A stretch of DNA of 57,673 bases from an uncultured virus (IMG/VR IMGVR_UViG_3300025502_000006) (IMGVR_UViG_3300025502_000006); one strand, 5' to 3'. Shown: positions 17,544 through 55,000, counted from the stretch's first letter. Translations and numbers: made by a program. The notes: a model not told the origin generated them from the sequence alone.

Positions 17544-17678
17544 TATTTTGTTCTCCTTAGATATAAGAATGGCTTAGTAAAGTTATTTAGTGAGTGGTAC
17601 GGAAAAGCACTGTTTAAGTACTACTTTTTTGCGTTTTTGATGTATTATCGATTAGATAGAGAGGATTTAATTGAATAA

Positions 17679-17909
17679 TTAAAAACTGGGTGCCGCCCCT
17701 TCTTCAGGTTTTGCACCGTATTGTTTTCTTACTTTAGACAAATGCTTAGTCTTTTCGTAATTTCTTACATCTAGCATTTTGCGGAGTTTTCTAATTTGAC
17801 TTAGTGTTAATTTAGTTTTACGAGAAGTTCTCCATATAGGCTTGGAGTTGTCATCTCCAACATCTTGGATTCCGGGAATTGCAACGTCAAACATTTCAAA
17901 TAATTTCAT
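17679..17909 (-). CDS. Small basic head-module protein (76 aa)
   Basis: RKTKLTLSQIRKLRKMLDVR; sits directly after the portal, with TAAATA 5 nt upstream of its ATG. Confidence 0.7.
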   Translation of the reverse strand: MKLFEMFDVAIPGIQDVGDDNSKPIWRTSRKTKLTLSQIRKLRKMLDVRNYEKTKHLSKVRKQYGAKPEEGAAPSF

Positions 17910-17927
17910 AAGAGTATTTATCTTTTG

Positions 17928-22902: not shown

Positions 22903-23745
22903 ATGGAAAACAACAACAGTAATCCCCTACGTCAATTCTTTCGTAGACCCGCAGTACATTTAACTCTACCTTCTGGTGGTGAAGCATACACAAGTGACGA
23001 TATTGAATTTCCGGCAGATACAAGAGAACTGCCTGTTTATCCGATGACAGCCATTGATGAGATAACAACAAAAACACCAGATGCATTGTTTAACGGTTCT
23101 GCTATGGTAGAACTTATCAAGAGTTGTATTCCCGCAATCAAAAATCCATGGAATCTATTGAGTAATGACCTAGATAGTGTTCTCATCTCTATTAAAGCGG
23201 CAGGTGGACAAGAAACAATTGATGTCGAGTCTGTGTGTACAAATGAGGAGTGCGCGATTCCAGGTACTTATGGTATTAACCTACAAGTATTACTGCGATC
23301 TATTTCGAAGGGTGATTATGAAACTCCTTTACCTATAGGTGATTTAAAAATATGCTTTGGTCCTATACAGTATTCAACCATGAATAAAGCGGCTTTAAAA
23401 CAGTTTGACATTCAAGGCAAGTACAAAAATACACCCCAAATAGAAGACACTACTGAACGCAATGAAGCAAATAAAAATGCATTGATAGATATCACATCAT
23501 TAACTATGGAAATTTTATCAGATACAATCACCAAGGTAATAACACCCGATTCAGAGGTGACAGAAACAGAATTCATACTTGATTTCTTGCAGAACTGTGA
23601 TACTACAACATACGAAGCAATTCGTGATCATAACGTAGAACTCAGATCAAAAAGTACTATCAAGCCACTGACAATTACCTGTACTGAATGTGAACATGTA
23701 TATACGCAACCATTCACACTAAACGCATCGGATTTTTTCGTCTAA
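22903..23745 (+). CDS. Baseplate hub subunit / tail assembly chaperone, T4 gp26/gp51 family-like (280 aa)
   Basis: LTLPSGG..Y, PMTAIDE, DLDSVLISIK, two Cys pairs (CTNEEC, CTECEH) and a C-terminal DFF; GAGGA Shine-Dalgarno. Confidence 0.8.
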   Translation: MENNNSNPLRQFFRRPAVHLTLPSGGEAYTSDDIEFPADTRELPVYPMTAIDEITTKTPDALFNGSAMVELIKSCIPAIKNPWNLLSNDLDSVLISIKAAGGQETIDVESVCTNEECAIPGTYGINLQVLLRSISKGDYETPLPIGDLKICFGPIQYSTMNKAALKQFDIQGKYKNTPQIEDTTERNEANKNALIDITSLTMEILSDTITKVITPDSEVTETEFILDFLQNCDTTTYEAIRDHNVELRSKSTIKPLTITCTECEHVYTQPFTLNASDFFV

Positions 23746-23782
23746 GACTCCTTTCACTCGACCCTGATGGGGTGAGGGAGTT
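23733..23782 (+). other. Predicted -1 programmed ribosomal frameshift signal
   Basis: Slippery heptamer T TTT TTC (23733-23739), 6-nt spacer, then hairpin GACTCCT(T)TCACTC / GGGTGAGGGAGTT (23746-23782). The -1 frame is open into the next ORF. Confidence 0.75.
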
Positions 23783-23969
23783 GATCAACGATTACGAAAA
23801 TTACACCCAGGGAATCAAGTCAAATGCATTGACCATGTCTTGGTACATGCGAGGTGGTGCGTCCTATGAAGACATTCTCAATATGTCGGTATCAGAAAGA
23901 AAAACTATCAGTGCCTTAGTAGAAGAACACCTGGAAACTACAAAGAAAACACAAATACCATTCTTCTAA
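23739..23969 (+). CDS. Second chaperone segment (gpT-like), probably expressed as a frameshift extension
   Basis: The -1 frame reads RLRLLSLDPDGVRELINDYE...SWYMRGGASYEDILNMSVSERK. The xxxEILxMxxxERxx helix is typical of tail-chaperone C-terminal segments. The only nearby start is a GTG buried in the hairpin. Confidence 0.7.
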   Translation, partial: RLRLLSLDPDGVRELINDYENYTQGIKSNALTMSWYMRGGASYEDILNMSVSERKTISALVEEHLETTKKTQIPFF

Positions 23970-24013
23970 ACAACCTTATATTGGTCTTGTTTAGAAGTTC
24001 TCTTCGAGAACTT
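23964..24013. terminator. Two adjacent hairpins at the convergent gene junction
   Basis: TTCTAAACAA...TTGTTTAGAA (23964-23996) and AAGTTCTC-TTC-GAGAACTT (23995-24013). Confidence 0.5.
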
Positions 24014-24111
24014 AATTACTCTTTCACTTCGTTCAATCATAATTTTTCTTTCAAAGTAATAAATTTAAATACTGGATGATTATAATTTTGTTTTTGTATT
24101 ATTATTTTTTG

Positions 24112-24465
24112 AGAGCCATGGTAGTGCTTCTAAACACTACCAATGATCGGCGGACTATTGTTCCCGTCGTCCCATGTTGATTATCCCCAATCGATTACGT
24201 TACTATAATCAATTGCTACCGGTTGCCCTGTAAAGTTTGCTGGGTTGTAGTTGAGTCGATTACACTAATAAATGTAACCTCTCGGCAACGCATGTTTCAT
24301 ATCATCAAATCAAAATATATATGAACTCATTCAAGGTTCGCTACCATAACGATTGCCTTGTCGGTTTATGTGTCTATAAATAGACACTACTCCAGTTCCG
24401 TCGCCTGCATGACACAGGTTCCTCAAGGAGGGTCGAGTATAAATCACGACCATACTAAATGTATG
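24112..24465 (-). ncRNA. Candidate large structured non-coding RNA (family not recognised)
   Basis: About 10 consecutive or nested stems in an ORF-free interval. The non-Watson-Crick positions in at least five stems are G-U on the minus strand but would be C-A on the plus strand. Confidence 0.65.
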
Positions 24466-24470
24466 TTATA

Positions 24471-25136
24471 TTAAATCTTTATAGCTGTAGTTTTAGTTTC
24501 TATTGGGCTTGAGTTGTTCTCTGACGAGGTTGAGTTGTTCTCTGGTGGGTTTGAGTTGTTCTCTGACGAGGTTGAGTTGTTCTCTGGTGGGTTTGAGTTG
24601 TTCTCTGGTGGGTTTGAGTTGGTCTCTGGTTTGCCTGAGTATGCTTTAAATATATCTTTGTTGTGTTTGAAAAAATGATCATGCTCTACTAAAATCCAAT
24701 CAGCATGATATTTGGAAGTATAATACATAAATTGATCACTTACCCATGTATATCTGCTAGGTACGCAAACAAATTTGCCTTTACGATTAAATTTCATAAA
24801 AAGAACATTTAAGTCGCCTTCATCAGCTACGTCCATTAATTGGTCTAACCATGAATCAAGTTGTTTACATGATCCTGCCAGTACCTGATGAAACGGAAAG
24901 TCTGCATAAAATTTACATTCTACATTAAGCATGACAAAACTTTGTCCAGGAACAATGTCCCCTTTAAAACTTCTAATCTGGCCTTCATGTAGTATCTCTG
25001 TACGAGATTGATTTTTGCCACCAACATAAGCACCAGAGCCAGGTGCTCTGATAAAACTTTCTTTGTATAGTTCACTTAGATATTTTGCGATGTCTCGTTC
25101 GTATCCTGAACCTTTGTTTTTTGATGGTGATGGCAT
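24471..25136 (-). CDS. Holliday junction resolvase, Hjc-type PD-(D/E)xK, with a repeat tail (221 aa)
   Basis: SKNKGSGYERDIA...R.PGSGA...GDIV...VECKFY motifs; adjacent to gp46/gp47. Confidence 0.8.
   Translation of the reverse strand: MPSPSKNKGSGYERDIAKYLSELYKESFIRAPGSGAYVGGKNQSRTEILHEGQIRSFKGDIVPGQSFVMLNVECKFYADFPFHQVLAGSCKQLDSWLDQLMDVADEGDLNVLFMKFNRKGKFVCVPSRYTWVSDQFMYYTSKYHADWILVEHDHFFKHNKDIFKAYSGKPETNSNPPENNSNPPENNSTSSENNSNPPENNSTSSENNSSPIETKTTAIKI
24509..24630. repeat. 21-bp tandem repeat, ~5.8 copies of two variants (A-B-A-B-B-B')
   Basis: Variant A ttgagttgttctctgacgagg at 24509 and 24551; variant B ttgagttgttctctggtgggt at 24530, 24572 and 24593; a partial copy at 24614. Encodes NSTSSEN/NSNPPEN. 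Confidence 0.95.
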
Positions 25137-40036: not shown

Positions 40037-43000
40037 ATGTCAAGAATAAGAACAGTAGATTTTTTACCAGAGATATTCAAAACTTCCACGAATACACAGT
40101 TCTTGGGAGCAACACTTGACCAACTAGTTAATCCTCCAAAGACAGAAAGATTGCAAGGTTATGTGGGAAGCGAGTTTGGTTATGGTGTCAACGCAAAAGA
40201 TTACTATGTAACTGAGCCAAACAAAACGAGAACCGATTACCAGTTGTCTCCCGGTGTCGCATTCTTAAACAACAATCAAGCATCTGCAAAAGACTTTCTA
40301 AGTTACCCAGAGTTGATTGATGCGATTAAACTTAAGGGCGGAGTCACGCTTAACAATAGTCGATTGTTCGAAAGCCAATTCTATTCTTGGGATTCTTTCA
40401 CGGCATTAGATAAACTAATTAATTTTAACCAGTACTACTGGATACCTGCAGGACCACCAGTGGTCACAGTTGCGTCTGCTATTGTCTTCTCAGAAACAGA
40501 CTATAAAGTCACTGATACGGCAAGTGCTTACAATGTAAAATTGTTAGGCGCATCTTCAGGGACACTTAATCCAACTGTTACCTTACTTCGTGGCGGTACA
40601 TATCGTTTCGCAGTTGATCAAGAAACTCAATTTTGGATTCAGGGCGTACCTGGAACTACAGGGTTATCAGGTGCACAGGATACTAGACAAGTTCTAGGTG
40701 TTAACAACAACGGTGCTACAGATGGTTATGTTTCATTTACAGTTCCCGCCAGAAATGCACAAGATCAATTTTTGTTTCCAGGCAACAACTTAGTTGGCGT
40801 AGTAAGCACTGCATTATTTGCTGACGTTAACGGCAAGACTCTTAGCGAACTAGGAAGCATAGATGGCGTAACGTCACTTGAAAATCTATCTGTGATGTTC
40901 TATGATACAGGAGAGGAAAATGAAGTAGGTTTCGTATCATCATTCTTTGATGAGAGCGGAGCAAACTATGATGTTAATTTAACATCTCCTGATTTGGTTC
41001 CTGCAGTTACATTGGAAATCACAGAAACAGTCGCTGGTGGAACAAATAAACTAATTACATCAGGTGTTACTACTGATCTGGTTCCCAATCAAACAATTAC
41101 GTTTTCATCATCAGCGGGCGCACCGTTGCTAGGTGGACTATCCCTCGACACAATTTACTATGTAAAATCTATCGTTAGTGCAACAGAATTTACAGTCTCG
41201 TTAACACTTAATGGACCCGCACAAACTCTTACTGCTAACACAGGAACGATGATTGGAAACGTTAATGAAGGCTTGTTTGATGAAGGCTTCTATACTAACG
41301 TTAGTGAAAACTACTATACAATTACGTATGTTGGTGATTCATCTGATCCAACAATTCGTTTAATCCCAGCTGGAGTAATCCCATCTGACGAAAAGATTAC
41401 GGTAAGCTTCGGAACTGCATACATCGGTTTAGATTTTTACAGAAGTCTTGTTGGTATTTTGTTGCGTGTTCCTTATCTGTCGGCTTTACTAGACACTTTG
41501 TACTATCAAGACGGCACGTTTGCAAACAAAGTTGGTATGATAAAATTAATTGATAGTAACCTGACGAACACATTAGATGTTACTACTGATATAATAGGAC
41601 AAAAAACATTTACATCAACCAATGGTGTAGTATTTACCAATGGATTAAAAATACAATTTGATGGTGATGTTAGCCCAACAAGTTACCTCACTGGTGAATA
41701 TTATGTAGCCGGCGTAGGTGAAGCAATTGAACTTGTATCTACCACAGACCTAACAGTACCAGAAGACTTTACTGGAACAAACTACATACCTTATGATAGT
41801 TTGAATTATTCAATCGGCAACTTTGACACAGAGTTGTTTATTCCAGTAACTCCAGATTATATCACGATAGCCAGAGATGCAATTAATAGAAATGCATGGT
41901 CACGCTCTAACAGATGGTTCCATGTTGATGTTATAAATGCTACTGCTACGTATAATAACGACCCTACAATTATTACAACATATGCTACGGGTGCCGCAAA
42001 AGCAAAAAGACCGATTGTTGAATTCTATCCAAATTTAAAACTATTCGATTCAGGGTCGGAAGCAAAAGCACCAGTTGACTTCGTAGACACAAGAACCACC
42101 AACGCCTTTGATAAAGTAGCCAATCAAGCACAATATTATCCTGACATAGAATCATATACATTATACACTGCGACCATTGCGGCAAGCTCCGGCGCAACCT
42201 CCACTACTATTACCATTGCAACCACGGACATTACTTCGCCGTTACAAGTTGGGCAATACATTACTGATTCAACAAACTTGTTGCCGATTAATACTACGAT
42301 TACGACAAGTGTAGTCAGTGGAGATAATACAATTCTGACTGTCGGTTGGTCTTCACCATCTACTTTCGCAAGCACTACTGTAGCATCTATTGTTGGTAGC
42401 GGCACAACAGTTAACAACTATGCGTTGTTCAGTGGAGCGAGAATCGTCTTCGCATCAGACACCAATTTACAAGTTAAAAACAAAATATGGGTCGTGGGCT
42501 TTTCAGTGATCTCGTTTGGATCACCAGCTGTTATTACATTAACAGAATCAGAAGACTCTCCTATTAATGCAGACAATCAAACTGTAGCCCTCAGAGGATT
42601 CAACTATCAAGGTTCTACATTCTGGTTTGACGGTCTATCATGGCAAGAAGCACAGCAAAAATCAACTGTTAACCAGGCTCCTCTTTTCGACATCTATGAT
42701 AAGGATGGAATCTCGTTTGGCGATGCAACAATTTATCAAGGAACTTCGTTTTTGGGTAACAAATTGTTTGCATATGGTGTTGGTGTTGGCACTAATGACC
42801 CAATATTAGGATTCCCAGTTCGTTATTCTGATATTAGTAACGCAGGCGATATTAGCTTTGATATATCATTGAATGTTGACATCTTTTCTTATGTGACTGG
42901 AACGACACCTGTCACGGCAAAAGTCAATACGGGTTATGTATATAATTACTCTGATCGTACAACGAAAACACGTGAATTGGGCTGGCAAACTGCCATTGCC

Positions 43001-46000
43001 CCCTCAGTTCAGTATCAAATATTTGAACTAGAATATAATACAGGGTCCACAGCCTCTTTCACGTGTGACGTTCAAGTATTAGCAGATGATGTTACTATTA
43101 CTGAGAAGTGGCCATCTGCCCAAGTATATATTAATAACGTATACCAGTTACCTAGTGCATACACAATAACATCAACTGCAACTGAAACTACAGTGACATT
43201 AAACACAGCTCCGACAACAGATACCCCTATACAAATCTTGTTGTTGAGCAACCAAACATCGGAAACTGCTTATTATAGCATACCTATAAATTTAAGCAAC
43301 AACCCATTCAATGCTGATTTAGAGATAGCAGACCTTGGTGACATTAGATCACAATATCAAGACATATTCGTTAATGCTCCAGGCACAGCAGGAGCAGTCT
43401 TTGGCTCAAACAATTACAGAGATTTAGGTAATCTAGCTCCATATGGCACTAAAATTATTCAAAACTCTGCGGCGGTGGTATTGCCAAGTGTGTTCCTGCG
43501 CAGATCAAATCATAATTTGTTCGATGCATTACAATTTAATGCACATCAGTATGTTCAGTACAAACAACAATTGGTTAAAACAGTCAATGACATCGATTGG
43601 GACCAACGATTTGATCCAGGTTATATATTAGACACGGCATTAGAAAAACTTACTTCAGCAAAATCTGAAACTGGTTCGTTTTTCTGGAGTGATATGCTTC
43701 CGTCGCAAGCACCACATAAGTCAAACATCTATACATTCGCCAATGCATTGCAAGAGTCTATCTATCCATTGTCGCAAACATATGACTTCACTAAAGCAAA
43801 CTATAACGGAGTTTTAGTTTATCTTATAAGAACAGTATCGGGCGTAACCAAGACAACTCAATTAGTGCGAAATGTAGACTATACAGTTTCAACATCTGCA
43901 CCTTCATTGACAGTTACAGAAGACTTAATTGCTGGTGACAAGATCACGATCAATGAGTACACACAAACATATGGATCGTTTGTACCCAATACGCCTAGTA
44001 AGTTAGGCATGTATCCTAAATGGAAACCTGAAGTTGTATTAGATTCTAACTATCAAACACCTACTTACATGTTAAGAGGACATGATGGTTCTTATACCTC
44101 ATTGTATTCTTTAGACTACACACCTGCAGTAGGTCTGACTGACTTCAGAGATCAAGCACTGTTGGAATTTGAAACTAGAATATACAACAACATTAAATTA
44201 AGCACTGTCGTTCCTATACAAGCATACGAAGTGTTACCGGGCTTTTTCAGAGCATCAACATACTCTACCGAAGACTATTTAAAAATTTACAGTTCGCAGT
44301 TTTTAAACTGGGCTGGTCAAAATAGAATTGATTACAAAACTCAAACAGGCTATACAAAAACAAACCAGTTTAGTTTTAACTATTCAGAACAAGGGAACAG
44401 ACTAACAGAAACCCCAATTACTCAAGGTTATTGGAGAGGTGTCTATGAATACTTCTACGGCACATCACAGCCAAATACGGCCCCTTGGGAGATGTTAGGC
44501 TTCTCCGAAATACCATCATGGTGGACTGCACAGTATGGTCCCGCACCTTACACCAATCAAAACGGTATTATGTGGACAGACATCGAAGCTGGTCTCATCT
44601 ATAACGGTAGTACTGCACTATCAGTAACCGTACCTGAATTGAAACGCACCGGTTTATCTAAAATCTTACCAGTTGATGAGCATGGAACATTGCTGTCACC
44701 GTTTGATGCGCTGTTGGGAAATTACGATACTAACACATTCCAGAAAAATTGGAAAGTCGGCGATGACGCACCAGCAGAATTTTCATACAGAAGAAGTGCA
44801 TCTTATCCTTTTGATTTGATGCGAATATTTGCATTAACCAAACCAGCAGACTTCTTTAACTTGGGCGCAGACCTAGATAATTACAAGTATAGCACAGAAT
44901 TCAATCAATATCTAGCAAATGATAGAAGTCATTTAGATATTAGTGCGATATCAATCTATGGCGACGGTACAGCAAAAACGAGTTACATCAACTGGATTGT
45001 GGATTTTGAAAAACAACAAGGTACTGATGCAACCACCGAGATCACTAGTCAGTTAAGAAACGTAGATGTTCGTCTAATTTATAGACTAGCAGGCTTCAGT
45101 GACAAAACATTATTAAAATTCTTTGTCGAGAAAGCAACACCAAATTCTGACAATGCATCATTACTTTTACCCGACGAAAGTTACAATGTTCTATTGCATG
45201 ACAACCAACCTAGTGGGGACTTGAAATATTCAAGTGTTGTGATTCAATTAGTATCCAATGGATGGAAAGTATTCGGTAACTCGCAAAGTCAAGCATACTT
45301 TACAATAGATCAACCTATAACAATCAGCAATAATAGAACGATTGCAGTTGATAATGCTTCGGTAAAAGTGGCAAATGCATATACACAAACCGAAACAAAA
45401 GAAAAACTTATTCCATATGGAACACAGTTCTATACTATACAAGAACTCGCACAATTTCTTGCAAGTTACGGTAATTGGTTAACTCGCAAAGGTATGGTAT
45501 TTGACTCTATCGATAATGGAGTAGAAATCAACTGGGATATAATGATCAAAGAATATCTCTACTGGACGCAATTTAATTGGGAAAATGGATCGTTGATCAC
45601 AGTGAACCCATCAGCACAATCTTTAAAAATTGAAAAAGATAGTGAGATTGTTCAGCCATTAACTATTGAACAAAGCAACTTCTTATTGAATCAAAATGCA
45701 TATCCCATTGCAATCAAAGACTTGGCGATTGAAAGATTAGATACTAAATTCGAAGTTAAAACTTTGAACTCTGGTGATACAATGTCATACGGACAGTTTA
45801 ATCTAAGCAACATGGAACACGGCATCGTATTCGACAACACAACTGTATTCAATGATGTACTTTACAACTTAATTACTGGTCTGCGACAGTCTCGCATTTA
45901 CCTTCGAGGAAGCAAGACCGCTGAATGGAACGGTACAGTGTTCGCATCAGGCTTCATTCTCAACCAAGACAATGTTGTTGAATGGGTACCAGCTATGAAA

Positions 46001-49000
46001 TATGCTAAGGGCACAATCGTAACTTACAAAGCCAAATATTGGACAGCGATCAAAACAATAGAACCATCGGCAGTATTTGCAGAACTTGATTGGGTTGAAA
46101 CAGATTACGATCAGATACAAAAAGGCTTATTACCTAACTCATCAACTCGTTCTTACGAAAGTACGTTGTACTATGACAGTACTAAAGCAAATTTAGAATC
46201 AGATGCAGACCAATTGTCTTTCTCTCTAATTGGATTTAGACCAAGAGATTATCTGGCTACAATTAATCTTACTGACATTACACAAGTCAATGTCTATAAA
46301 AACTTAATTAAAACAAAGGGTACGCCAAATTCAATCTCTGCCTTTAAGGGTGCTAAATTAGCAACAGGCGGAATTGATTATGATGTTTTCGAAAACTGGG
46401 GAATCCTGTCAGGTGAATTCGGTGGCACATTAAATAATAACTTTGCTGATTTCAAATTGAATGAAACAAAACTAACAGGTAATCCTTCTATCGTATCACT
46501 GACAACTGGTACACCGACTATTGGCTCTCAACAAGAAGTGCCTCTTGGAAACTTGTTTAATTATTCAAGACCTATTACATCGCCGCAAATCTTATCGACG
46601 CTTGGAGTAGAATCTCCTCTTAGTTTATATCCTACAGCCGGGTTTGTCAACTACAATGATGTTAAAATGGCATCATACTACTATGCAAATTTACCAACTG
46701 CAAGAAATGCAGAAGCTATTCCAGTACCAATCAATGATTTTTATGTAAGAGATTTTGTTTGGTTAGCAAACTTCAAAGAAAACTGGAGAGTTTATGCATG
46801 GAAGCCAGTGGGCAGAGTAACAGCAGTGACACCCAACACAGATAATACAACTACAATTACATTTGCTAATCCTCACGGTTTGTCAAAATTAGATCCAGTG
46901 TCATTCATTAACGTATCATCTACGGTCAATGGATATCATATCATAACACGTGTTAATACTCTAACTGAAGTAACAATCAATCTAACACTAGCAGAGCAAC
47001 CACAGAACTTAGCTGGCAACGGAATCGGCTTGACATTTGTTGATCAAAGAGTAGCTAAACCTGCTGATATCAACACAATGGATTTAAACGAAGCAGAGTT
47101 TACGCAAAACACTGTTTGGGTAGACGAAGCAACAGATGGTCAGTGGGGCGTTTATCGAAAGTCTATTAATTATGATTTAACAAAGAATTTAAATCGTGCT
47201 GATGGACAAACATTTGGTAGTGCAGTAGCATATACAGCTAGAATGGGTTATTTAATAGGTGATTCGACAGCAGGCAAGGTCTATCGTTATGGATACAACA
47301 CTGCTACTAAAGAATTTGATTTAGATGCAGGTAGCACACTAACAGGTAGTCTGTCATTCGGTAGTAAAATTGAATATTCAGGTAATCTATTTGTTATTAC
47401 TGAACCAGACAACGGTACATCAGGCTTAGCGCAATCAAAAGTTAGAATCTACACATTAAATGATACAGTTTTAAGCGATGACATTACATTGCTACAAACA
47501 ATTACATTCGCTGGTAACTATGCTGATAGCATTGCCCTAAGTGATGATAAAGAATGGCTCTATATTGGTGACACAACGACCAGTGGTAGAATTCGTGCAT
47601 ATCGTAGACAACACATACCATTACTTGCTGGATTCTTTGAAACAACTGAAACATATGAAATTACAAGCGTGGGCACAACAGATTGGAAAGCAATCGGTGC
47701 ATTAGACAACAAAGTCGGTATTGTTTTTGTTGCAACTGGCGTTGGTTCCGGTACAGGAACAGCAAATCAAATAACATATCAGGCTTTACCCACTACGATA
47801 GAAGGCTCAACTGCACCTGTCAGTGCTATTACAGGCGACAACTTTGGTTATGCCATATCAACTGACAACAACGGAGATACAATTTCTGTTAGTGCTCCTA
47901 ACAAAGCATCACCGACTGCAAAATCAAATTGGGGTAGCAACTATATCTATTCACGTTTGGTTCAAAACATTGAAACACAATACAATGCTCAGCCAGCACA
48001 ACCGTATAATTTTAATCAGGCGTGGACCACATTGCATGTCGCTAGAACAGCAAACGATGTAACCAGCAACGTAATCACCTTTGTAGGCACTGCGATAACG
48101 GCAGACTTTACAAATAGACCTGTCGTGTTCAATGTAGGTGGAACTTATGGTGATTCGGGTATATCCCCTAATCAAGTATACTACATGCAATATATTTCAG
48201 CACAATCGTTCTCACTTAAAACAACCAGATCAACTATTGATGTGATCACACTTGTCGATGACGCTACCGCTGATTTTATACTATATGATCAAGCAGATTC
48301 GTTACACGTTTCAGTCAATGGCACATTTGTCGATGACAACAATTATGCATCTATCGGAACAATCTTTAGATACTTCGGATCACTTATAGCAGGTGATATT
48401 GTTACTGTTGGTAGCAATGTGTTCACTTGGGTTCAAACAATGAACTCTTCACTCGACGAAAGAGTAGGCACACAGTTTGGCTATGATAATGCCATGACAT
48501 CGTTCGGAAGCGAAATATTAGTAGGAGCACCTGGAGAAATTCGAATTGCAGGTGAAGTACAGACTGATGGATCAGTCTACAGATATACAAATGGCGGTGG
48601 CAAGTATGGCACAGTAATCGGCACTGGTGATTGCACTCTAACCGCTGACAGAAAATTATTAATCAACGGTTATCTTGTCCAACTAGTGAGTGGTTCAACT
48701 GCAACAGAAATTGCAAGCCTTATTAACGAGTACTCTATAACAAACGTAGTCGCATCTGCAACGGTAGATAACAAACTTGTCATCTCGGTTACTAATACTA
48801 ATTTAGCATTGATTAACGAAAAACTTCTGTTACAGGCGCCAAACACGGATACATTCGGTGAATTAGGCATCCCTGTTTACACAAACACTCAAGTTATTAC
48901 TGCCCCTCACAATGAGAGCAGAACATTATTTGGTAATACAATTGAGTTTAATGAAAGTGACTCAGTTGTTATTTCAGCTCCAGCATCAACTCGCTATTTA

Positions 49001-52000
49001 GGAACGACATTCGACTTTATAGATGACTCGAATTTAGACAATGATACATTATTTGATAACAACGCAACACGCTTTGTCGATACGTGGGACAACGCTGGTG
49101 CAGTATACATGTATGATTATCTTGCTAACTACAATGGCTCAGTCGCTAATTCTGGTAAATTTGTCTATGCACAAAACATAAACAACACAGATCAAAACTA
49201 TGGCTTCCAACCATTATACGGCACATCATTAGATTTTTCTGACAACAAAGTTGTTATCGGTACACCAAACTTAAGTTACGGAGATTTAGAAGGTCAAATC
49301 ACAGTATATGAAAATGCAAGCGGCCTTAAGGATTGGGCATTGCATAGACAATCATCAGCGGTGGTTGATATTAATAAAATACAAAACGCACAAATTTATA
49401 GTGCAGAAACAAATGACACGTTAATCAATTTAGATTACATCGATCCTATGCAAGGTAAATTGCTAGGAGCAGTCAGAGAAAACTTAGACTTTGTTAACAA
49501 CGTCGATCCAGCATACTACAATGCAGAACTTGGTGGCGTTAATGCAGGACTTATTTGGGGGATTCGACAAGTAGGAAATCTTTGGTTTGATACAACTAAT
49601 GTGAGATGGTTAAACTATCACCAAAATGATGTAGAGTACAATGCTAGACATTGGGGAAGAGTCTTCCCTGGTTCGCGAGTTTCTGTTTGCACGTGGGTTA
49701 GAAGTAATGTTTCTCCTGACAGATACACAGGTCCTGGAACACCTAGGAGTCTAACACAATATAGTGTTGAAGCATCATTGAATGCATCAAACACCGTTAT
49801 CCCTACTTACTATTTCTGGGTCCTCAATACTGACACAGTAATGTCGGCCGAAGGCAAAACGCTCAGTGATACTACATTAGAAAACTATATTAGAAATCCA
49901 AGACTGTCTGGTATCGCATACTTTGTTCCACTATTGCAGAACACATTTGCTCTATATAACACAGGCGAATATGTTAATAATACTGACAGTGTTTTCCATA
50001 TAGGCTTTGCAACAGGAAACAACGATGATCCTTCTCATCAAGAATTTAATTTAATTAGAGCAAACTTCTCTGATGACTTCTTACCAGGTCTACCAAAGTT
50101 TGGCGTACAAACACCTTCAAACAGCCCACGTGGACTATATGATCGTTTATTAGATTCGCTGTCAGGGGTGGATGAAATTGGAGAAGTAGTACCGAATCCA
50201 TATTTACCGAAAGCAGTTCAGTCAGGTGTATTGTCTCGACCAAGACAGAGTTTCTTCTTTAGTAGATTCCTAGGCTTAGAAAATTACTTAAATTATGCAA
50301 ACACAGTACTTGCACAATTTCCAATAGCTGAAACACGACAAGACGCGACATACCTGTCCAAGACAGGTACATATTATGACACGACAACTTACTGGGAATA
50401 TGTTAACTGGTGGCTGCCTACTACCAACCCAGTTGGACAGTACAATAATAACACTAAGTCAACAGCATCAGTAGCAATCTATGCAGACTTGGCCGCACTT
50501 GTGGTTGATGCAGGTACTATTGTGACTGTTGAAACAAACGGAAATGGCAAGTGGGAAGTATATCGGTTTGATGGTAATGGTGTGTGGACTCGCATCGGGT
50601 TAGAAAATGGCACGATTAAATTCAAAATATATTTATGGGATTACGCCGCAGGCAAAACAGGCTTCGGAGAGAATTTCTTTGATACAGACACATATGATGA
50701 TTATCCGAGTGAAGAAACACGTTGGATTATTCGTGCGTTGAACGAACAAATTTATATTGATGAACTTGTATCATTTAGAAACAAGTCGTTGATTATTTTG
50801 TTTGAATACATTCAAAGTGAAACAGATGAATCACAGAATTACTTACCTTGGTTGACCAAAACATCTCTGGTTGATGTATCACATGTGATCAGAGACTTAG
50901 AACCAATTCAAAACTATCAAGGTGATAACCAAGACTTCTTAGCAGGTTATATTAACGAAGCAAAACCTTATCACGTAGTTATTAAAGACTTCTTGTTTAA
51001 GTACACAGGGTTAGATACCTGGCAAGGCAATGTTACTGATTTTGATCTACCTGCCGAATATCAGACTAGTTCATTGTCGTATGTTTCTCCTCAATTAGTT
51101 TATCAAAATGCAAATTCGAACGCACAGTTTTTACCAATTGATCCGATTTGGTCTAGTCCTCAATATACTAGCTGGTATAATAATTACGGCGTGTCAATCA
51201 CGGGTATTCCAGATTACCAACTAACTGTATTGGGAGAATACATGACACTTGGTTCAACATTCTTGTTTGTTGACAACGCACAGGGCTTCCCGATTAACGG
51301 AATAATTCAAATTGGTACAGAAATTATCGGTTACTCGTCTGTTGATCGTGCATTAAATTTACTGAGTGGACTACAACGCGGCATTAACGGAACTACAGCA
51401 GTTGCACACATACCAGGCGCAAAAGTTTTCATGGATCTTCCTGCAGTAATAGTTTTAGATGGTGGCAAGAATTATATCGAACCTCCAGAAATTACAGCAT
51501 ACATAGATACAACAAACTACCCAGAACCTAGGGTATTAGCACAACTCGAAGCAGTGATGAGCGTTGGTTCAGTGATCAGCGTGAACGTTATAAACCCTGG
51601 CGAAGGGTACGCTGTTTTACCAGAAATCAGAATTGCTCCCGCAGACCAGTTGTTTTTTGCAAACGCAGATATCAACTCTACATTACATACGATTAAACTG
51701 TTTGCTCCTAATATAATGACAGGTGATTTAATACAATACAAAGATGCAATCGCTGGCGCGGCAGTTGGCAAGCTAGTAAACGACCAATGGTATTATATCA
51801 ATGTACTTGAAACAAACCCGACTACGATTGTTGCATTGTACACAAATTACAATGATGCAGTAACAGAAACAAGCAGAGTTAAACTTGTCGCTGGTACAGT
51901 CGATGGGGACTTCGCATTGAATATAGGCGCGAAAGCATCAGCAATTACCAGTTCATCACCGGTGAGACAAAATCAACTCGCGATGCGATTCGATAGAACT

Positions 52001-55000
52001 ACTTACAAAAGTCAAATCACCGATTGGGAAACAAATGTATATTACGGATCATTCTTCGCAGGAGGCTACTTTAATAGCGAGAATGTATCGTCTTCTTCTA
52101 TATCATTGCAAGCATCGCAACCTCCAATTACTTCGATTGCGGCCTCGGCTGAAGGCGCAATATTTGAAATAGCAGATATTAGTAATAACCAAGACATATT
52201 GTACACTACCTTTGCCCGTAGAGTTACAAACACCACCGCAACCGGAAACAAGATTACATTGAATCCATATGATGAGGGTACAGGTGCAGTAAACTCATCT
52301 GGTTCAACAATTGGCTTCACTGTCGGTATGCCGATTAAGTTCTCTGGTGCTACTATAGGTAATATTATAGCAGGTACAGTCTACTATGTCAAGTCTGTTG
52401 ATAGCATAACTGAGTTTACAATCAGCGCCACTAATGGTGGAACAACATTTGTAGTAACCGATGCAACGGCACCGTTATCTGGTATAGATGCATTTGCAGG
52501 TGAAGTAACAGACACGGCCGTTTTGACATTAAACTATCCAGGTATGTTAATAGTCACAGCTACAGCATCGACATCAAATAAAATCACAATCCCACAAAGT
52601 ATTATAGGTACAGGTGGTACTGATGGCTTCTATCCAGGCATTCCATTATTCTTTACCGGAACGACTTTCGGTGGCATTTTAGAAGATGATGTTTACTATG
52701 TAACTACAGTGGTTGATAATGAAACTATCACTCTCGGTGCATCAGCGACATCAGTTAGTACTACTGTTTTAGGAACAACTACATCCACGAATGTAGTCAC
52801 GGTGTCTAGTACAACAGGCTTCGCAGTTAACGATGCAGTTATCTTTAACAACATGCGTAATTTATCTACGAATTTAGTGGCATTATCGTATGGCGGAATT
52901 GTATCGGGTACTTTATACTACGTCAATGAAGTTGTGTCAGATACTGAATTAAAAATAGCAACACAGATAAATGCTGGCGTATTAGCATTATCTGATGCAT
53001 TTCTTATTGACGCGGGATCATTCACGATTGGTAACACATACCAAATTGTCACTGTAGGAACAACGATCTTCACAGACATAGGCGCAATCAATAATACTGT
53101 AGGTACAGTGTTCATTGCAACCGGAGTGGGCGCAGGCACTGGCGTAGCAACTTCTACTACTGCTTTACTAGGAAATCAAAAAGATACGTTGGACCTAACA
53201 ACAGCAACCGGCGCAATGACAATGAATGTGTCATTGCCAATAGCACCTGGACAAGTTACTGGTCAGCAGTTTACACTTTATAATACCTCTTCGTTCTATT
53301 CTGATATTACGACTGGTGTATTATCAAACACAATCGATAGAGCGTGTTATGCTACTCTCGAGGGTGATGTTGGGGAAGGTACAAACGATAGAATTGCATT
53401 AAGCAGTGTAGATAAAGGAACAGTTAATTTTTACGTTGGTATGCCATTAGAATTCAATACTGTCCCAGTTGGTTCAGGACTAGCAACTGGGACAACTTAC
53501 TATGTTAGAGATTTTTCAGACTCAGATGATAAAACTACCTACATCTCAGTCTCATGCTCAAACACATCGTCATCAACAAATGAAATCACTTGTTTAGATA
53601 CTTCATCGTTGTGGGTAAATATGCCGATCATATTCTCTGGCATTGGTTTAGGAAACATTATCATTGGCGATCAGTATTACATCAAAACAATAGTAAACGC
53701 AACACGCTTTACTATTGCAACAACACCAGCTGACAGTGCTTATGTCTTACTAACAGATAATGGTGCGATGACAGGTACTGGTAGTCCTTGGATACGATTA
53801 AACGACATCTCTGATGCAATCATACCGATTAGCGCAAACACAACCACGGTGTTTAGTTTAACACAAACTCCAACTACAAGTGCTATAGTTGATATGGCTT
53901 TCAAGTTGGGTGGGTACAGAGCAATACTAAGCAATGCTGGCGTAGGCTATGCAATTACTAACAAGATCACAATATCAGGTGCAGAAATAGGCGGAACAGC
54001 TCCTGAGAATGATGCTACGTTAGAAGTCAACACTATTAGTTCAACTGGTGCAATTACAAGTCTAATTGTTTCAGGAGATCCAGCAGATAAAGTTACTCAG
54101 TATTTCTTAAAGATCACTACTGCGAACCAACTTGAAGTTTACTCAGATGCAAGAATGACTGTTCCAGTTAGTGGTATTGGATTTGACTTTGTAGGATTTA
54201 CATCCACTGATGTAGTAGAAACATTTGAACCATCAAACAAGATCGAACTGACAGACATTTCTGGATTTGCAGTCAATGATGAAATAGTATTCATGGGAAC
54301 TATCCCAGTGGACGGTGGCGGTAACCCATATTTCGCCTCTACTACAACGACTTCATATTATATTAAAACAATAGATACGGCCGACGATACTATTCAAATA
54401 TCATTAGACCCAGGTGGAAGTGTTATTAATGTCGCAGTCTCATCAGTGTCACCAATCACTGGGTTAACTATTGCCAAAGCAGGTAGCTATGCGTTCTTAC
54501 CAGAACCTTTCTACTTCAATCAGTCAATTGTAAAATACCTAAACAGAGTTTACAGATGCACTATCTCAAACAATGACACCGAATTCGTTATTGGTAAATG
54601 GGAAGAACTGCGATCAGATGATCGTGTCCTAAATGCACTGGATAGAGTAGAAGGATATTATCGACCGACTGTTAACATGCCTGGCCTTGACCTTACTCAA
54701 TTGTTTAGTGGCGTGACGTATCCAAATGCGGTTTACTTAGGTAATGCATTTGCACCTGAAGATCAATACAGCATAGATACAGAATTAAAAGGCCAAGACT
54801 TCTATCCAACAGGTGTTTCAATTACATCTGTACTTTGGGACGGCACGAATTATTTCGCATCGTCTAATTTAAGCACTTACTCAGGACTGCTAACATCAGG
54901 TGCAGGTACTAATTGGACAATTAAACAAATCGCCAGTTCTGTTGTTGGTATAACTGATATTGTACTGGGCGCCGGCATTTATGTCATGTCTTCTACAAAC

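What the first reader, a model, noticed from the sequence alone, without database searches (positions are those of the whole stretch)
24112..24465. Unannotated ~350-nt highly structured RNA-like element between the resolvase and chaperone genes
Seen: this is the only large non-coding gap in a gene-dense window, and it is tiled with stems. In plus-strand coordinates these are 24451-24465; GGTCG/CGACC 24431-24451; 24421-24431; 24404-24418; a perfect 7-bp stem at 24370-24387; CAAGG/CCTTG 24332-24360 enclosing a 6-bp stem; 24296-24325; GTTGCC/GGCAAC 24222-24289 enclosing an 8-bp stem at 24258-24279; an 11-bp stem at 24188-24215; and an 8-bp stem at 24119-24142. Mismatches resolve as G-U only on the minus strand, which indicates selection on a minus-strand RNA. 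A CGACGG(G)AAC motif occurs twice (24403-24395 and 24169-24160), and CUGG-AGUAG could pair at long range with CUAC-AAC-CCAG. I do not recognise tRNA, tmRNA, RNase P or intron hallmarks. Inference: a new phage ncRNA or ribozyme or, given the flanking 21-bp repeats, A/T tract and GAA hairpins, a folded primer RNA for an R-loop origin (ColE1 RNA II / T4 ori logic) beside the recombination genes.
Basis: partly seen in the sequence, partly recalled or inferred. Interest (0 to 1): 0.85.

Follow-up and report, generated by a model that had tools for sequence, protein, structure and literature searches.

The report
New pseudoknotted RNA in giant phages
The gap holds a real, previously undescribed, elaborately folded RNA about 360-470 bases long that is conserved just behind a DNA-cutting enzyme gene in many uncultured giant water phages, and its two matching short exposed segments hint that it may start DNA copying.

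Summary
Confirmed and extended. Window 23995-24465, minus strand, is a conserved structured RNA, not coding DNA.

- **Occurrence:** homologous DNA follows the same nuclease gene in 79 of 80 protein-found viral loci and 117 of 120 motif-found loci.
- **Structure:** on 67 representatives (<95% identical), 51 modelled pairs are 98.3% paired. 32 pairs change on both sides, against 5-13 when partners are slid.
- **Fold:** a four-helix core (P4-P7) is locked by two covarying pseudoknots. Six variable hairpins and an invariant 9-bp hairpin complete it.
- **Not known elsewhere:** no Rfam 15 family, tRNA or tmRNA matches. It is absent from 50,697 cultured phage records and five related jumbo phages.
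- **Odd feature:** a hairpin-loop segment and a 3' tail segment change in parallel, same letter in both, in 8 of 8 independent tree contrasts. I found no complementary partner.

My committed mechanism (about 0.3, inferred) is a co-transcriptional fold that seeds an RNA-DNA hybrid in the AT-rich tract just downstream, which is ColE1 RNA II logic. Rivals are a trans-acting RNA, a partner or regulator of the adjacent nuclease, and a ribozyme. Transcription and strand are not directly shown.

The parts
23995..24465 (-). Whole conserved unit: structured body, AT-rich linker, two 3' hairpins
   Evidence: blastn finds it downstream of the nuclease gene in 79 of 80 loci. A core profile finds it in 79/80 and 117/120 loci. 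The 3' hairpin module is present in 103 of 123 distinct tails.
24451..24465 (-). 5' leader with a local 5-bp hairpin, specific to this clade
   Evidence: Seen in the MFE fold. The leader differs between clades. The nuclease stop codon lies only 24-55 nt before P2 in 40 distinct loci.
24431..24451 (-). H1 hairpin
   Evidence: 67 of 67 representatives form at least 4 bp here, with 55 distinct sequences.
24390..24430 (-). P2 (CUCC 24427-24430 with GGAG 24390-24393), enclosing H2 (24404-24418) and a conserved GACGG motif
   Evidence: P2 is 100% paired, and 2 of its 4 pairs have a compensatory change. H2 forms at least 4 bp in 59 of 67.
24371..24386 (-). H3 hairpin (variable; large insertions in some relatives)
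   Evidence: 67 of 67 form at least 4 bp, with 56 distinct sequences.
24217..24366 (-). Four-helix core closed by P4 (24362-24366 with 24217-24221)
   Evidence: P4 is 99.4% paired and 3 of 5 pairs covary. The covariance model R1 hits 24209-24368(-) at 152.9 bits, E 4.8e-38, the only hit in the window.
24332..24360 (-). P5 with inner 3-bp helix (24350-24352 with 24338-24340)
   Evidence: 100% paired. 4 of 5 and 2 of 3 pairs covary.
24292..24330 (-). P6 hairpin; its loop (24308-24313) is the 5' strand of pseudoknot b
   Evidence: 10 of 10 pairs covary and 97.8% are paired.
24222..24289 (-). P7 (24284-24289 with 24222-24227), enclosing H8 (24253-24283) and a conserved single-stranded stretch (24228-24253) that includes the 5' strand of pseudoknot a (24242-24244)
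   Evidence: P7 is 96.3% paired and 3 of 6 pairs covary. H8 forms at least 4 bp in 66 of 67. The stretch contains invariant letters.
24189..24214 (-). H9 hairpin
   Evidence: 67 of 67 form at least 8 bp, with 56 distinct sequences.
24177..24188 (-). 3' strands of pseudoknot a (24186-24188) and pseudoknot b (24177-24182)
   Evidence: Pseudoknot a: 3 of 3 pairs covary, 98.0% paired. Pseudoknot b: 5 of 6 pairs covary, 96.3% paired.
24147..24171 (-). H10, a small weak hairpin whose loop carries segment A (24153-24165)
   Evidence: 65 of 67 form at least 4 bp. Segment A changes in parallel with segment B.
24114..24142 (-). H11, an invariant 9-bp hairpin (24119-24142), plus the invariant AUGGCU that follows it
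   Evidence: 6 of 8 stem pairs never vary and none shows a change on both sides across 67 representatives, unlike every other helix. Used as the search motif.
24099..24111 (-). Segment B: single-stranded tail copy of segment A, about 10 nt after H11
   Evidence: Alignment columns 401 and 474 read G-G in 32 sequences and U-U in 14, never mixed. 8 of 8 independent contrasts go the same way.
24047..24098 (-). AT-rich, A-rich linker
   Evidence: 24047-24111 has GC 0.15. In 96 of 96 distinct copies the linker GC (mean 0.23) is below the body GC (mean 0.44).
24014..24045 (-). 3' hairpin A: covarying stem with a conserved 12-nt apical motif (24023-24034)
   Evidence: The motif is found in 103 of 123 distinct tails, at a median of 70 nt after H11. 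The stems differ while the loop is kept.
23995..24013 (-). 3' hairpin B (8 bp), shared with the end of the convergent + strand gene
   Evidence: 7 of 8 pairs covary in a 97-sequence alignment. It scores as terminator-like on the + strand in the window.
24471..25136 (-). Upstream gene: PD-(D/E)XK endonuclease (labelled RusA-like resolvase in PHROGs). The RNA starts right behind its stop codon.
   Evidence: Pfam PF24608, E 1.4e-26. PHROG 244, E 3.6e-20. The gene is found upstream on the same strand in 75 of 76 motif-found loci with enough DNA.

Best explanation
**Shown (about 0.95).** The gap encodes a new family of structured RNA, read from the minus strand.
- The body is about 360 nt (24099-24461). 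It has a four-helix core (P4, P5, P6, P7) locked by two pseudoknots, six variable hairpins and one invariant hairpin, H11.
- After the body come an AT-rich linker and two conserved hairpins, ending at 23995.
- It begins 5-20 nt after the stop codon of a PD-(D/E)XK nuclease gene.

**Inferred (about 0.7).** It is made as the 3' continuation of that gene's transcript.

**Committed mechanism (about 0.3, inferred).** The RNA works in cis at its own locus as a replication-priming, R-loop-seeding RNA.
1. The core folds while it is being transcribed.
2. The fold presents segment A in the H10 loop.
3. H11, about 10 nt before segment B, may slow the polymerase there.
4. Segment A has the same sequence as segment B, so it can anneal to the template DNA strand at segment B.
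5. This anchors the nascent RNA, so a persistent RNA-DNA hybrid forms in the AT-rich tract that follows. That hybrid could be used as a primer or as a recombination entry point.

This is the logic recalled for ColE1 RNA II, where an upstream RNA loop pairs with a downstream template stretch, and for phage T4 R-loop origins.
For: **Structure**
- 51 pairs are 98.3% paired, against 88.6 +/- 0.3 in shuffles (0 of 500 reach the observed value).
- 32 pairs have changes on both sides, against 5-13 when partners are slid.
- G-U cells outnumber A-C cells 51 to 12.
- Variable hairpins are kept in 59-67 of 67 representatives despite 48-59 distinct sequences each.
- All six frames carry stops in 66-67 of 67.

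**Linkage to the nuclease gene**
- 79/80 and 75/76 loci.
- The stop-to-P2 distance is 24-55 nt.

**Mechanism**
- Segments A and B take at least 10 different matched states.
- Their variable letter flips at least 9 times on the tree, always in both segments: 8 of 8 contrasts, p 0.008.
- No complementary partner turned up in the RNA, within +/-3 kb, or in one complete genome. A two-party relation with the locus's own DNA therefore needs the fewest co-mutations.
- The tract right after segment B is AT-rich in 96 of 96 copies, with A at 0.49 on the RNA strand.
- The locus is single-copy in a complete 352-kb genome. There it lies about 5 kb from the cumulative GC-skew minimum and the point where gene strands diverge.
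- Neighbouring genes are SbcCD-like (the PHROGs families that I equate, from memory, with T4 gp46/47) and nuclease genes.
Against: - No transcript end, strand or hybrid is shown. RNA-library contigs cover the core, but they cover the nuclease gene equally, and they may be DNA carry-over.
- No promoter was identified.
- The skew minimum coincides with the switch of gene strands and is 5 kb away, not at the RNA.
- Two pseudoknots, many invariant unpaired letters and an invariant helix are more than a primer is known to need. They are typical of RNAs that bind proteins or ligands, or that catalyse reactions.
- In two relatives the two segments differ by one C/U and one G/A. One third partner with wobble pairs fits that better than the template DNA does.
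- T4-type origins, as I recall them, need no folded RNA.
- The cultured relatives tested lack the element, so it cannot be a general origin of this phage group.
Confidence: 0.3

Rival explanations
1. A stable trans-acting RNA. It would be a scaffold of an RNA-protein complex, a sponge or a multimeric assembly, cut from the 3' end of the nuclease transcript. Its two identical exposed segments would bind two copies of, or two sites on, one nucleic-acid partner encoded elsewhere in the phage or host.
For: - The tertiary-looking fold has two pseudoknots and invariant junction letters.
- The body GC of 0.44 is above the genome's 0.37.
- The copies differ only by transitions, which fits one wobble-tolerant partner.
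- It is present in contigs of three RNA libraries from two studies.
- Large phage-borne RNAs of unknown role exist, such as GOLLD and ROOL (abstract of PMC12286853, seen in the listing).
Against: - A third covarying locus needs triple co-mutation many times over (at least 9 flips).
- No exact complement exists in a complete 352-kb genome other than the element itself.
- tRNA and tmRNA duplex scores are at chance level.
Confidence: 0.25
2. An RNA tied to the adjacent PD-(D/E)XK nuclease. It would act as a 3'-UTR domain that controls the stability or translation of that mRNA. Alternatively it would be a decoy or cofactor that binds the junction-specific nuclease, using the four-way RNA junction as a mimic of a Holliday junction.
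For: - Gene and RNA are strictly adjacent (79/80 and 75/76 loci).
- The RNA starts 5-20 nt after the stop codon, which leaves little room for a promoter of its own.
- The core is a four-helix junction with very short joining strands.
- The protein belongs to a putative phage endonuclease family with weak Hjc likeness.
Against: - Gene order is generally conserved in these phages, so adjacency is weak evidence.
- More distant homologues of the nuclease have no such RNA.
- This reading does not explain the parallel change of segments A and B or the AT-rich tract.
Confidence: 0.2
3. A self-processing ribozyme that cuts or joins at the two identical segments, releasing or rearranging the H11-containing piece.
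For: - Its size and pseudoknotted core are in the range of large ribozymes.
- Two identical sites flank an invariant module.
Against: - No internal guide complementary to the sites was found.
- No ribozyme family in Rfam matches.
- No interrupted gene is present.
Confidence: 0.1
4. Not an RNA at all, but a DNA-level element: protein-binding sites, cruciforms or slipped structures at an origin or packaging site.
For: - It contains direct repeats flanking an inverted repeat.
- An AT-rich tract follows it.
Against: - The G-U over A-C asymmetry is 51 to 12.
- Pseudoknot covariation makes sense only for a single strand.
- The minus strand folds better than the plus strand.
Confidence: 0.03
5. Small protein-coding genes missed by annotation.
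For: ORFs of 33-40 aa exist in the window.
Against: - Every frame has stops in 66-67 of 67 relatives.
- Lengths are spread evenly over the three residues modulo 3.
Confidence: 0.01

Closest known systems
GOLLD and ROOL RNAs (large ornate RNAs, often phage- or prophage-borne, function unknown)
   Same: It is a large, multi-helix, pseudoknotted non-coding RNA carried by phages. It was detected only by comparative analysis and has no assigned function.
   Different: It shows no sequence or structure-model similarity to them. It is smaller (about 360 nt body). It sits at a fixed place behind a nuclease gene rather than near tRNAs. It carries twin segments that change in parallel. Oligomer formation was not tested.
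ColE1 RNA II (plasmid replication primer; properties recalled, not tested here)
   Same: Both are long folded transcripts. In both, an upstream loop has the same sequence as a downstream stretch, so the loop can pair with the template DNA there. In both, a tract follows where a persistent hybrid could form. The total size is similar (about 470-550 nt).
   Different: The host is a lytic jumbo phage, not a plasmid. Pseudoknots are present. No antisense regulator was seen. No RNase H site or DNA start is known. Homology was not tested, because no model of RNA II was available to me.
Phage T4 R-loop origins oriF/oriG (recalled)
   Same: The phage has T4-like core genes. The locus lies beside recombination genes, with an AT-rich unwinding-type tract downstream of a transcript.
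   Different: As I recall, T4 origins need only a promoter and the unwinding element, not a conserved folded RNA. No promoter was found here.
Nuclease-adjacent guide RNAs (TnpB right-end RNA, IscB omega RNA; recalled)
   Same: A structured RNA starts at the end of a nuclease gene and ends in a short variable segment.
   Different: The nuclease here is PD-(D/E)XK, not RuvC-type. There is no Rfam HEARO match. The variable segment is only about 8-10 nt and is duplicated inside the RNA. No transposon ends were seen.
Group I intron core
   Same: Pseudoknot a has a nested order resembling the P3/P7 order of group I introns: helix, hairpin, strand, helix return, hairpin, strand return.
   Different: No Rfam match. 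No interrupted gene or exons. The joining strands have the wrong lengths. An extra outer helix, P4, encloses the whole core.

Membership tests
Any Rfam 15 family (4227 models, including GOLLD, ROOL, HEARO, RNase P, tmRNA, introns, riboswitches) | Covariance-model match at or near the family's gathering score | tested here: not met
   - 0 matches at gathering score in the whole window.
- At E<=10 on 23900-24700, only two snoRNA chance hits of 17-18 bits against 50-55 needed.
- In 14 divergent homologues at E<=1, one chance hit of 21 bits against 72 needed, on the other strand.
tRNA / tmRNA | Cloverleaf or tRNA-like domain detectable by ARAGORN | tested here: not met
   0 genes in the window. 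The same program finds 34 standard tRNAs, one tRNA-Pyl(cta) call and a permuted tmRNA elsewhere in a complete relative, none at this locus.
Group I intron | Interrupts a host gene, with exons on both sides | tested here: not met
   The upstream ORF ends in a stop codon 24-55 nt before P2. No downstream ORF continues it.
Group I intron | P3-P7 pseudoknot with a P4-P6 domain and a guanosine-binding P7 | tested here: inconclusive
   A pseudoknot of similar order exists. However, P7 would be only 3 bp, the joining strands differ, and the Rfam model does not match.
ColE1 RNA II-type primer (works-like test, not homology) | An upstream RNA segment able to pair with the template DNA of a downstream stretch next to the hybrid-forming tract | tested here: met
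   Segments A and B are identical or near-identical in all clades and change together. The AT-rich tract follows in 96 of 96 copies.
ColE1 RNA II-type primer (works-like test, not homology) | A persistent RNA-DNA hybrid cut by RNase H and extended by a DNA polymerase | not testable with these tools
   This needs in-vitro or in-vivo assays.
ColE1 RNA II-type primer (works-like test, not homology) | An antisense regulator RNA against the 5' part | not tested
   No plus-strand promoter-like site was found inside the body. The only + strand site lies at 24667-24695, in the nuclease ORF. No expression data are available.
T4-type R-loop origin | A promoter followed by an AT-rich unwinding element | tested here: inconclusive
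   The AT-rich tract is present. No promoter was identified: the sigma-70 scan found no more sites than shuffles, and the late-gene motif seen upstream of structural genes is absent here.
T-box leader | A specifier codon plus a conserved bulge pairing with the tRNA 3' end, placed upstream of a regulated gene | tested here: not met
   No Rfam match. No downstream gene on this strand. The codon-like reading of the twin segments is only suggestive.
Large ornate phage-borne RNAs (a kind, not a homologous family) | More than 300 nt, many covarying helices with pseudoknots, carried by phage genomes, no coding capacity | tested here: met
   It occurs only in viral contigs. The single hit in 185,579 species genomes lacks the core and is at chance expectation.

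The most novel reading that the evidence does not exclude
The RNA is the partner of the adjacent PD-(D/E)XK nuclease. Either it acts as a four-way-junction mimic that holds a Holliday-junction-cutting enzyme in check, or it is a new kind of nuclease-bound RNA whose twin 8-10-nt segments address the enzyme to matching DNA. That would make it a previously unseen RNA-directed or RNA-gated recombination nuclease in giant phages.
Probability: 0.1. Interest if true: 0.92.

Novelty: new member of a known kind. Interest (0 to 1): 0.8.

Why it matters
Large, intricately folded non-coding RNAs are rare, and each new class has opened new biology.

- **A new class.** This one is supported by unusually clean covariation, including two pseudoknots. 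It is specific to a widespread lineage of uncultured giant phages from salt-lake, marine and other waters. It also sits at a fixed place beside recombination genes.
- **A directly testable handle on mechanism.** The twin segments change in parallel, which is a pattern ordinary base-pairing does not produce.
- **If the R-loop reading is right,** it would be the first replication start in a tailed phage that depends on a folded RNA with a covarying 'address'. It would also give a way to find origins in giant phage genomes.
- **If the R-loop reading is wrong,** the RNA is still a good target for structure determination and for partner hunting.

Tried and rejected
**Known RNA families and cultured phages**
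- Known RNA families, tRNA and tmRNA: no match.
- Cultured phages: blastn found nothing at E 1e-5. At E<=5 it found only six 23-30-nt chance hits.
- The core model R1 gave no credible hit in SCTP-2, Phosso, PA5oct, Atu_ph07 or RsoM2USA. The best scores were 16.8 and 18 bits, at unrelated places.
- Five viral loci related to the SCTP-2 nuclease also gave no hit.

**Search for a partner of the twin segments**
- No column of the alignment shows complementary mutual information with them.
- 6-mer complement scans found no site shared by both segments beyond 10 of 67 sequences, at the P7 strand, which does not covary with them.
- No recurrent 7- or 9-mer complement lies within +/-3 kb.
- In the complete genome G002, the only exact 11-mer complement is the element itself.
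- The best duplexes with that phage's tRNAs and tmRNA are at chance level.
- The tRNA-anticodon (T-box-like) reading explains the codon-like cores but not the extra matched letters.

**Promoters**
- The sigma-70 scan found no more sites than shuffles.
- The A-rich motif before H1 overlaps the stop codon in some clades.
- An ACAGAACCC motif precedes the RNA in 18 loci only.

**Expression**
- One search and one laying of runs gave contigs only, with no strand or ends. This gives no verdict.

**GC skew**
- The minimum is near the locus but 5 kb off, and it coincides with the gene-strand switch.

**Technical points**
- A hand-written regular expression for the core was too strict, finding 53 of 77. 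I replaced it with a profile search.
- A full-length covariance model was not attempted because of the stated calibration limit. R1 covers 158 core positions.
- The single genome contigs match (L205) lacks the core, and a 20-letter pattern is expected to match a few times by chance in that collection.

**Literature**
- Three searches found no description of this RNA.
- The IMG/VR catalogue of candidate structured RNAs (PMC10690425; passages read) lists motifs of 29-151 nt. Its supplements are closed, so I cannot tell whether fragments of this RNA are among them.
- The four PA5oct ncRNAs (PMC7318152; passages read) lie elsewhere in that genome.

Full report
**Setting**

The window comes from a giant phage with T4-like core genes. 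PHROGs names a portal, a major head protein, baseplate parts, a late sigma factor, SbcC- and SbcD-like subunits and a 'RusA-like resolvase'. Pfam places that last protein (24471-25136, minus strand) in PF24608, a putative phage PD-(D/E)XK endonuclease (E 1.4e-26).

The nearest held record is a 57.9-kb fragment estimated at 17% of a genome. A related complete record, G002, is 352 kb. The same DNA occurs in about twenty salt-lake metagenome runs.

The finding lies between convergent genes: a + strand stop at 23969 and a - strand stop at 24471.

Yes.
- The minus strand of 24112-24465 folds to -102.7 kcal/mol (z -3.72; 0 of 100 shuffles as good). The plus strand reaches z -2.35.
- The body is richer in G+C than its flanks.

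**Relatives**

- A scan of viral contigs with the nuclease protein confirmed 261 relatives, of which 80 loci were kept.
- blastn with the window's minus strand finds homologous DNA directly downstream of the gene in 79 of 80. The missing locus is cut by its contig end. Identity falls to about 66-68%.
- A profile of the core finds it in 79 of 80 and 117 of 120 of these loci. The three misses are loci of 391-696 bases.
- Of 76 motif-found loci with enough upstream DNA, 75 have the nuclease C-terminus upstream on the same strand.
- The stop codon lies 24-55 nt before helix P2 in 40 distinct loci, so H1 starts 5-20 nt after the gene.
- The complete genome G002 has one copy, and so does the window.

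**Structure**

I reduced 97 distinct full-length copies to 67 representatives below 95% identity and aligned them as A2. On a structure of 51 pairs in 10 helices:
- 98.3% of 3417 cells are standard pairs, against 88.6 +/- 0.3 in shuffles (0 of 500 reach the observed value).
- 32 pairs carry changes on both sides, against 19.1 +/- 1.6 in shuffles.
- With partners slid by 1-3 columns, only 32-44% of cells pair and only 5-13 pairs show changes on both sides.

The fold has these parts:
- P2 encloses H2.
- P4 closes a junction of P5, P6 and P7.
- P7 encloses H8 and a conserved single-stranded stretch.
- Pseudoknot a joins three C's of that stretch to G's after H9 (3 of 3 pairs covary).
- Pseudoknot b joins the P6 loop to the next six letters (5 of 6 pairs covary).

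The variable hairpins H1, H3, H8 and H9 form in 66-67 of 67 representatives. H2 forms in 59 and H10 in 65. Each has 48-59 distinct sequences.

H11 is different. Six of its eight stem pairs never vary, and none shows a change on both sides. The six letters after it are invariant too.

G-U cells outnumber A-C cells 51 to 12, which names the minus strand as the RNA strand. Every reading frame has stops in 66-67 of 67 sequences, and lengths are spread evenly modulo 3.

**The 3' part**

- After H11 and about ten letters comes segment B.
- Then comes a linker that is AT-rich in 96 of 96 distinct copies: mean GC 0.23 against 0.44 for the body, with A at 0.49. The window's stretch 24047-24111 has GC 0.15.
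- Then comes hairpin A. Its stem covaries while a 12-letter apical motif is kept (103 of 123 distinct tails).
- Hairpin B follows directly.

**The twin segments**

The loop of H10 (segment A) and the tail (segment B) carry the same short sequence, and they change together with the same letter in both.
- Across the 67 representatives there are at least ten matched states.
- At the most variable position the two alignment columns read G-G in 32 sequences and U-U in 14, never mixed.
- On a tree built without these columns, the letter flips at least nine times in each segment. In 8 of 8 independent contrasts both segments go the same way (p 0.008).
- Block recombination could spread two haplotypes, but it cannot create ten matched states.

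I looked for a complementary partner in four places and found none: in the RNA, in the 130 nt downstream, within +/-3 kb, and in the complete genome G002. Duplexes with that phage's tRNAs and tmRNA are at chance level.

**What it is not**

- No Rfam 15 family matches the window or 14 divergent homologues, and ARAGORN finds nothing.
- No cultured phage record holds it.
- The core model R1 (158 positions, 29 pairs) finds nothing credible in five jumbo phages that carry the closest cultured nuclease homologues. It also finds nothing in five viral loci related to the SCTP-2 gene.
- In SCTP-2 and PA5oct the gene is followed at once by another gene.
- One pattern match in 185,579 species genomes lacks the core and is at chance expectation.

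**Expression**

Contigs of three marine RNA libraries from two studies cover the core of close relatives, for example 24172-24369 with 6 differences. They cover parts of the nuclease gene at similar depth. Being contigs, they show neither strand nor ends. This does not prove transcription.

**How it may work**

*Shown:* a conserved, single-stranded, pseudoknotted fold on the minus strand, fused to the end of the nuclease gene.

*Inferred:* it is transcribed with that gene.

The parallel change of two exposed segments calls for a common complement. The only complement that must change with segment B without any third mutation is the template DNA strand under segment B itself. I therefore commit, at about 0.3, to a cis mechanism:
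1. The folded body presents segment A.
2. H11, about ten letters upstream of segment B, may hold the polymerase there.
3. Segment A anneals to the template at segment B.
4. A persistent hybrid forms in the A-rich, AT-rich tract.

This is the logic I recall for ColE1 RNA II and for T4 R-loop origins.

Circumstantial support comes from the neighbouring recombination genes. In G002 the locus (13.4 kb) also lies about 5 kb from the cumulative GC-skew minimum and the point where gene strands diverge (18 kb).

Against this mechanism:
- No hybrid, promoter or transcript end is known.
- The skew minimum is not at the RNA.
- The complexity of the fold exceeds what a primer should need.

The rivals are a trans-acting stable RNA (0.25), an RNA tied to the nuclease as a 3'-UTR domain, decoy or cofactor (0.2), and a ribozyme (0.1).

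**Novelty**

Three literature searches found no description. A catalogue of candidate structured RNAs from IMG/VR lists motifs of at most 151 nt (PMC10690425; passages read).

I file it as a new, unrelated family of the known kind 'large ornate phage-borne RNA of unknown function'. The twin-segment pattern is its most unusual trait.

Noticed in passing
window 24504-24630: Six in-frame 21-bp tandem repeats form a C-terminal extension of the nuclease ORF. The ORF is 221 aa here, while the relatives' match covers only query residues 1 to about 164-198. L001/L002, which are 100% identical to the window, match over all 221 residues; all other loci stop by residue 198.
   Followed up: partly
window 40037-57673 (+): An open reading frame of more than 5879 aa runs off the end of the window, directly after baseplate wedge genes.
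   Followed up: no
window 17544-17927: A second gap of about 380 bases has no ORF of 100 aa or more on the gene strand, between a 264-aa gene and the portal gene. It has no Rfam or R1 hit.
   Followed up: no
window, upstream of genes starting at 9815, 11447, 13587, 19715, 22796 (-) and 29241 (+): A recurring motif of the form C/A-TAAATAC lies 15-40 nt before several structural genes. It may be this phage's late promoter. It is not present before the RNA.
   Followed up: partly
G002:C1:83288-83786 and 300450-315120: The complete 352-kb relative carries a permuted tmRNA (tag ANDSQFALAA) beside a tRNA with anticodon CUA. It also carries a cluster of 34 tRNA genes (ARAGORN).
   Followed up: no
L088, L091, L093, L096, L105, L108, L116, L119, L125, L127, L131 and others (18 loci): One sub-clade has a conserved ACAGAACCC motif 10-25 nt before H1, in place of the A-rich motif of the other clades.
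   Followed up: partly
L202:1486-2501 (Sinorhizobium phage Phosso): A 1-kb stretch without annotation lies between an RNase HI gene and the resolvase gene. R1 does not match it.
   Followed up: partly
window 22903-23969 (+): The baseplate-hub gene (Pfam T4_baseplate) is followed by a 65-aa ORF with no start of its own family.
   Followed up: no
window 24228-24253 and 24119-24142: The conserved single-stranded stretch contains (C/A)ACUACA in 60 of 67 representatives. This repeats the 3' strand of the invariant hairpin H11, so the 5' strand of H11 could pair with either one. That could be a structural switch and would explain why H11 never varies.
   Followed up: partly
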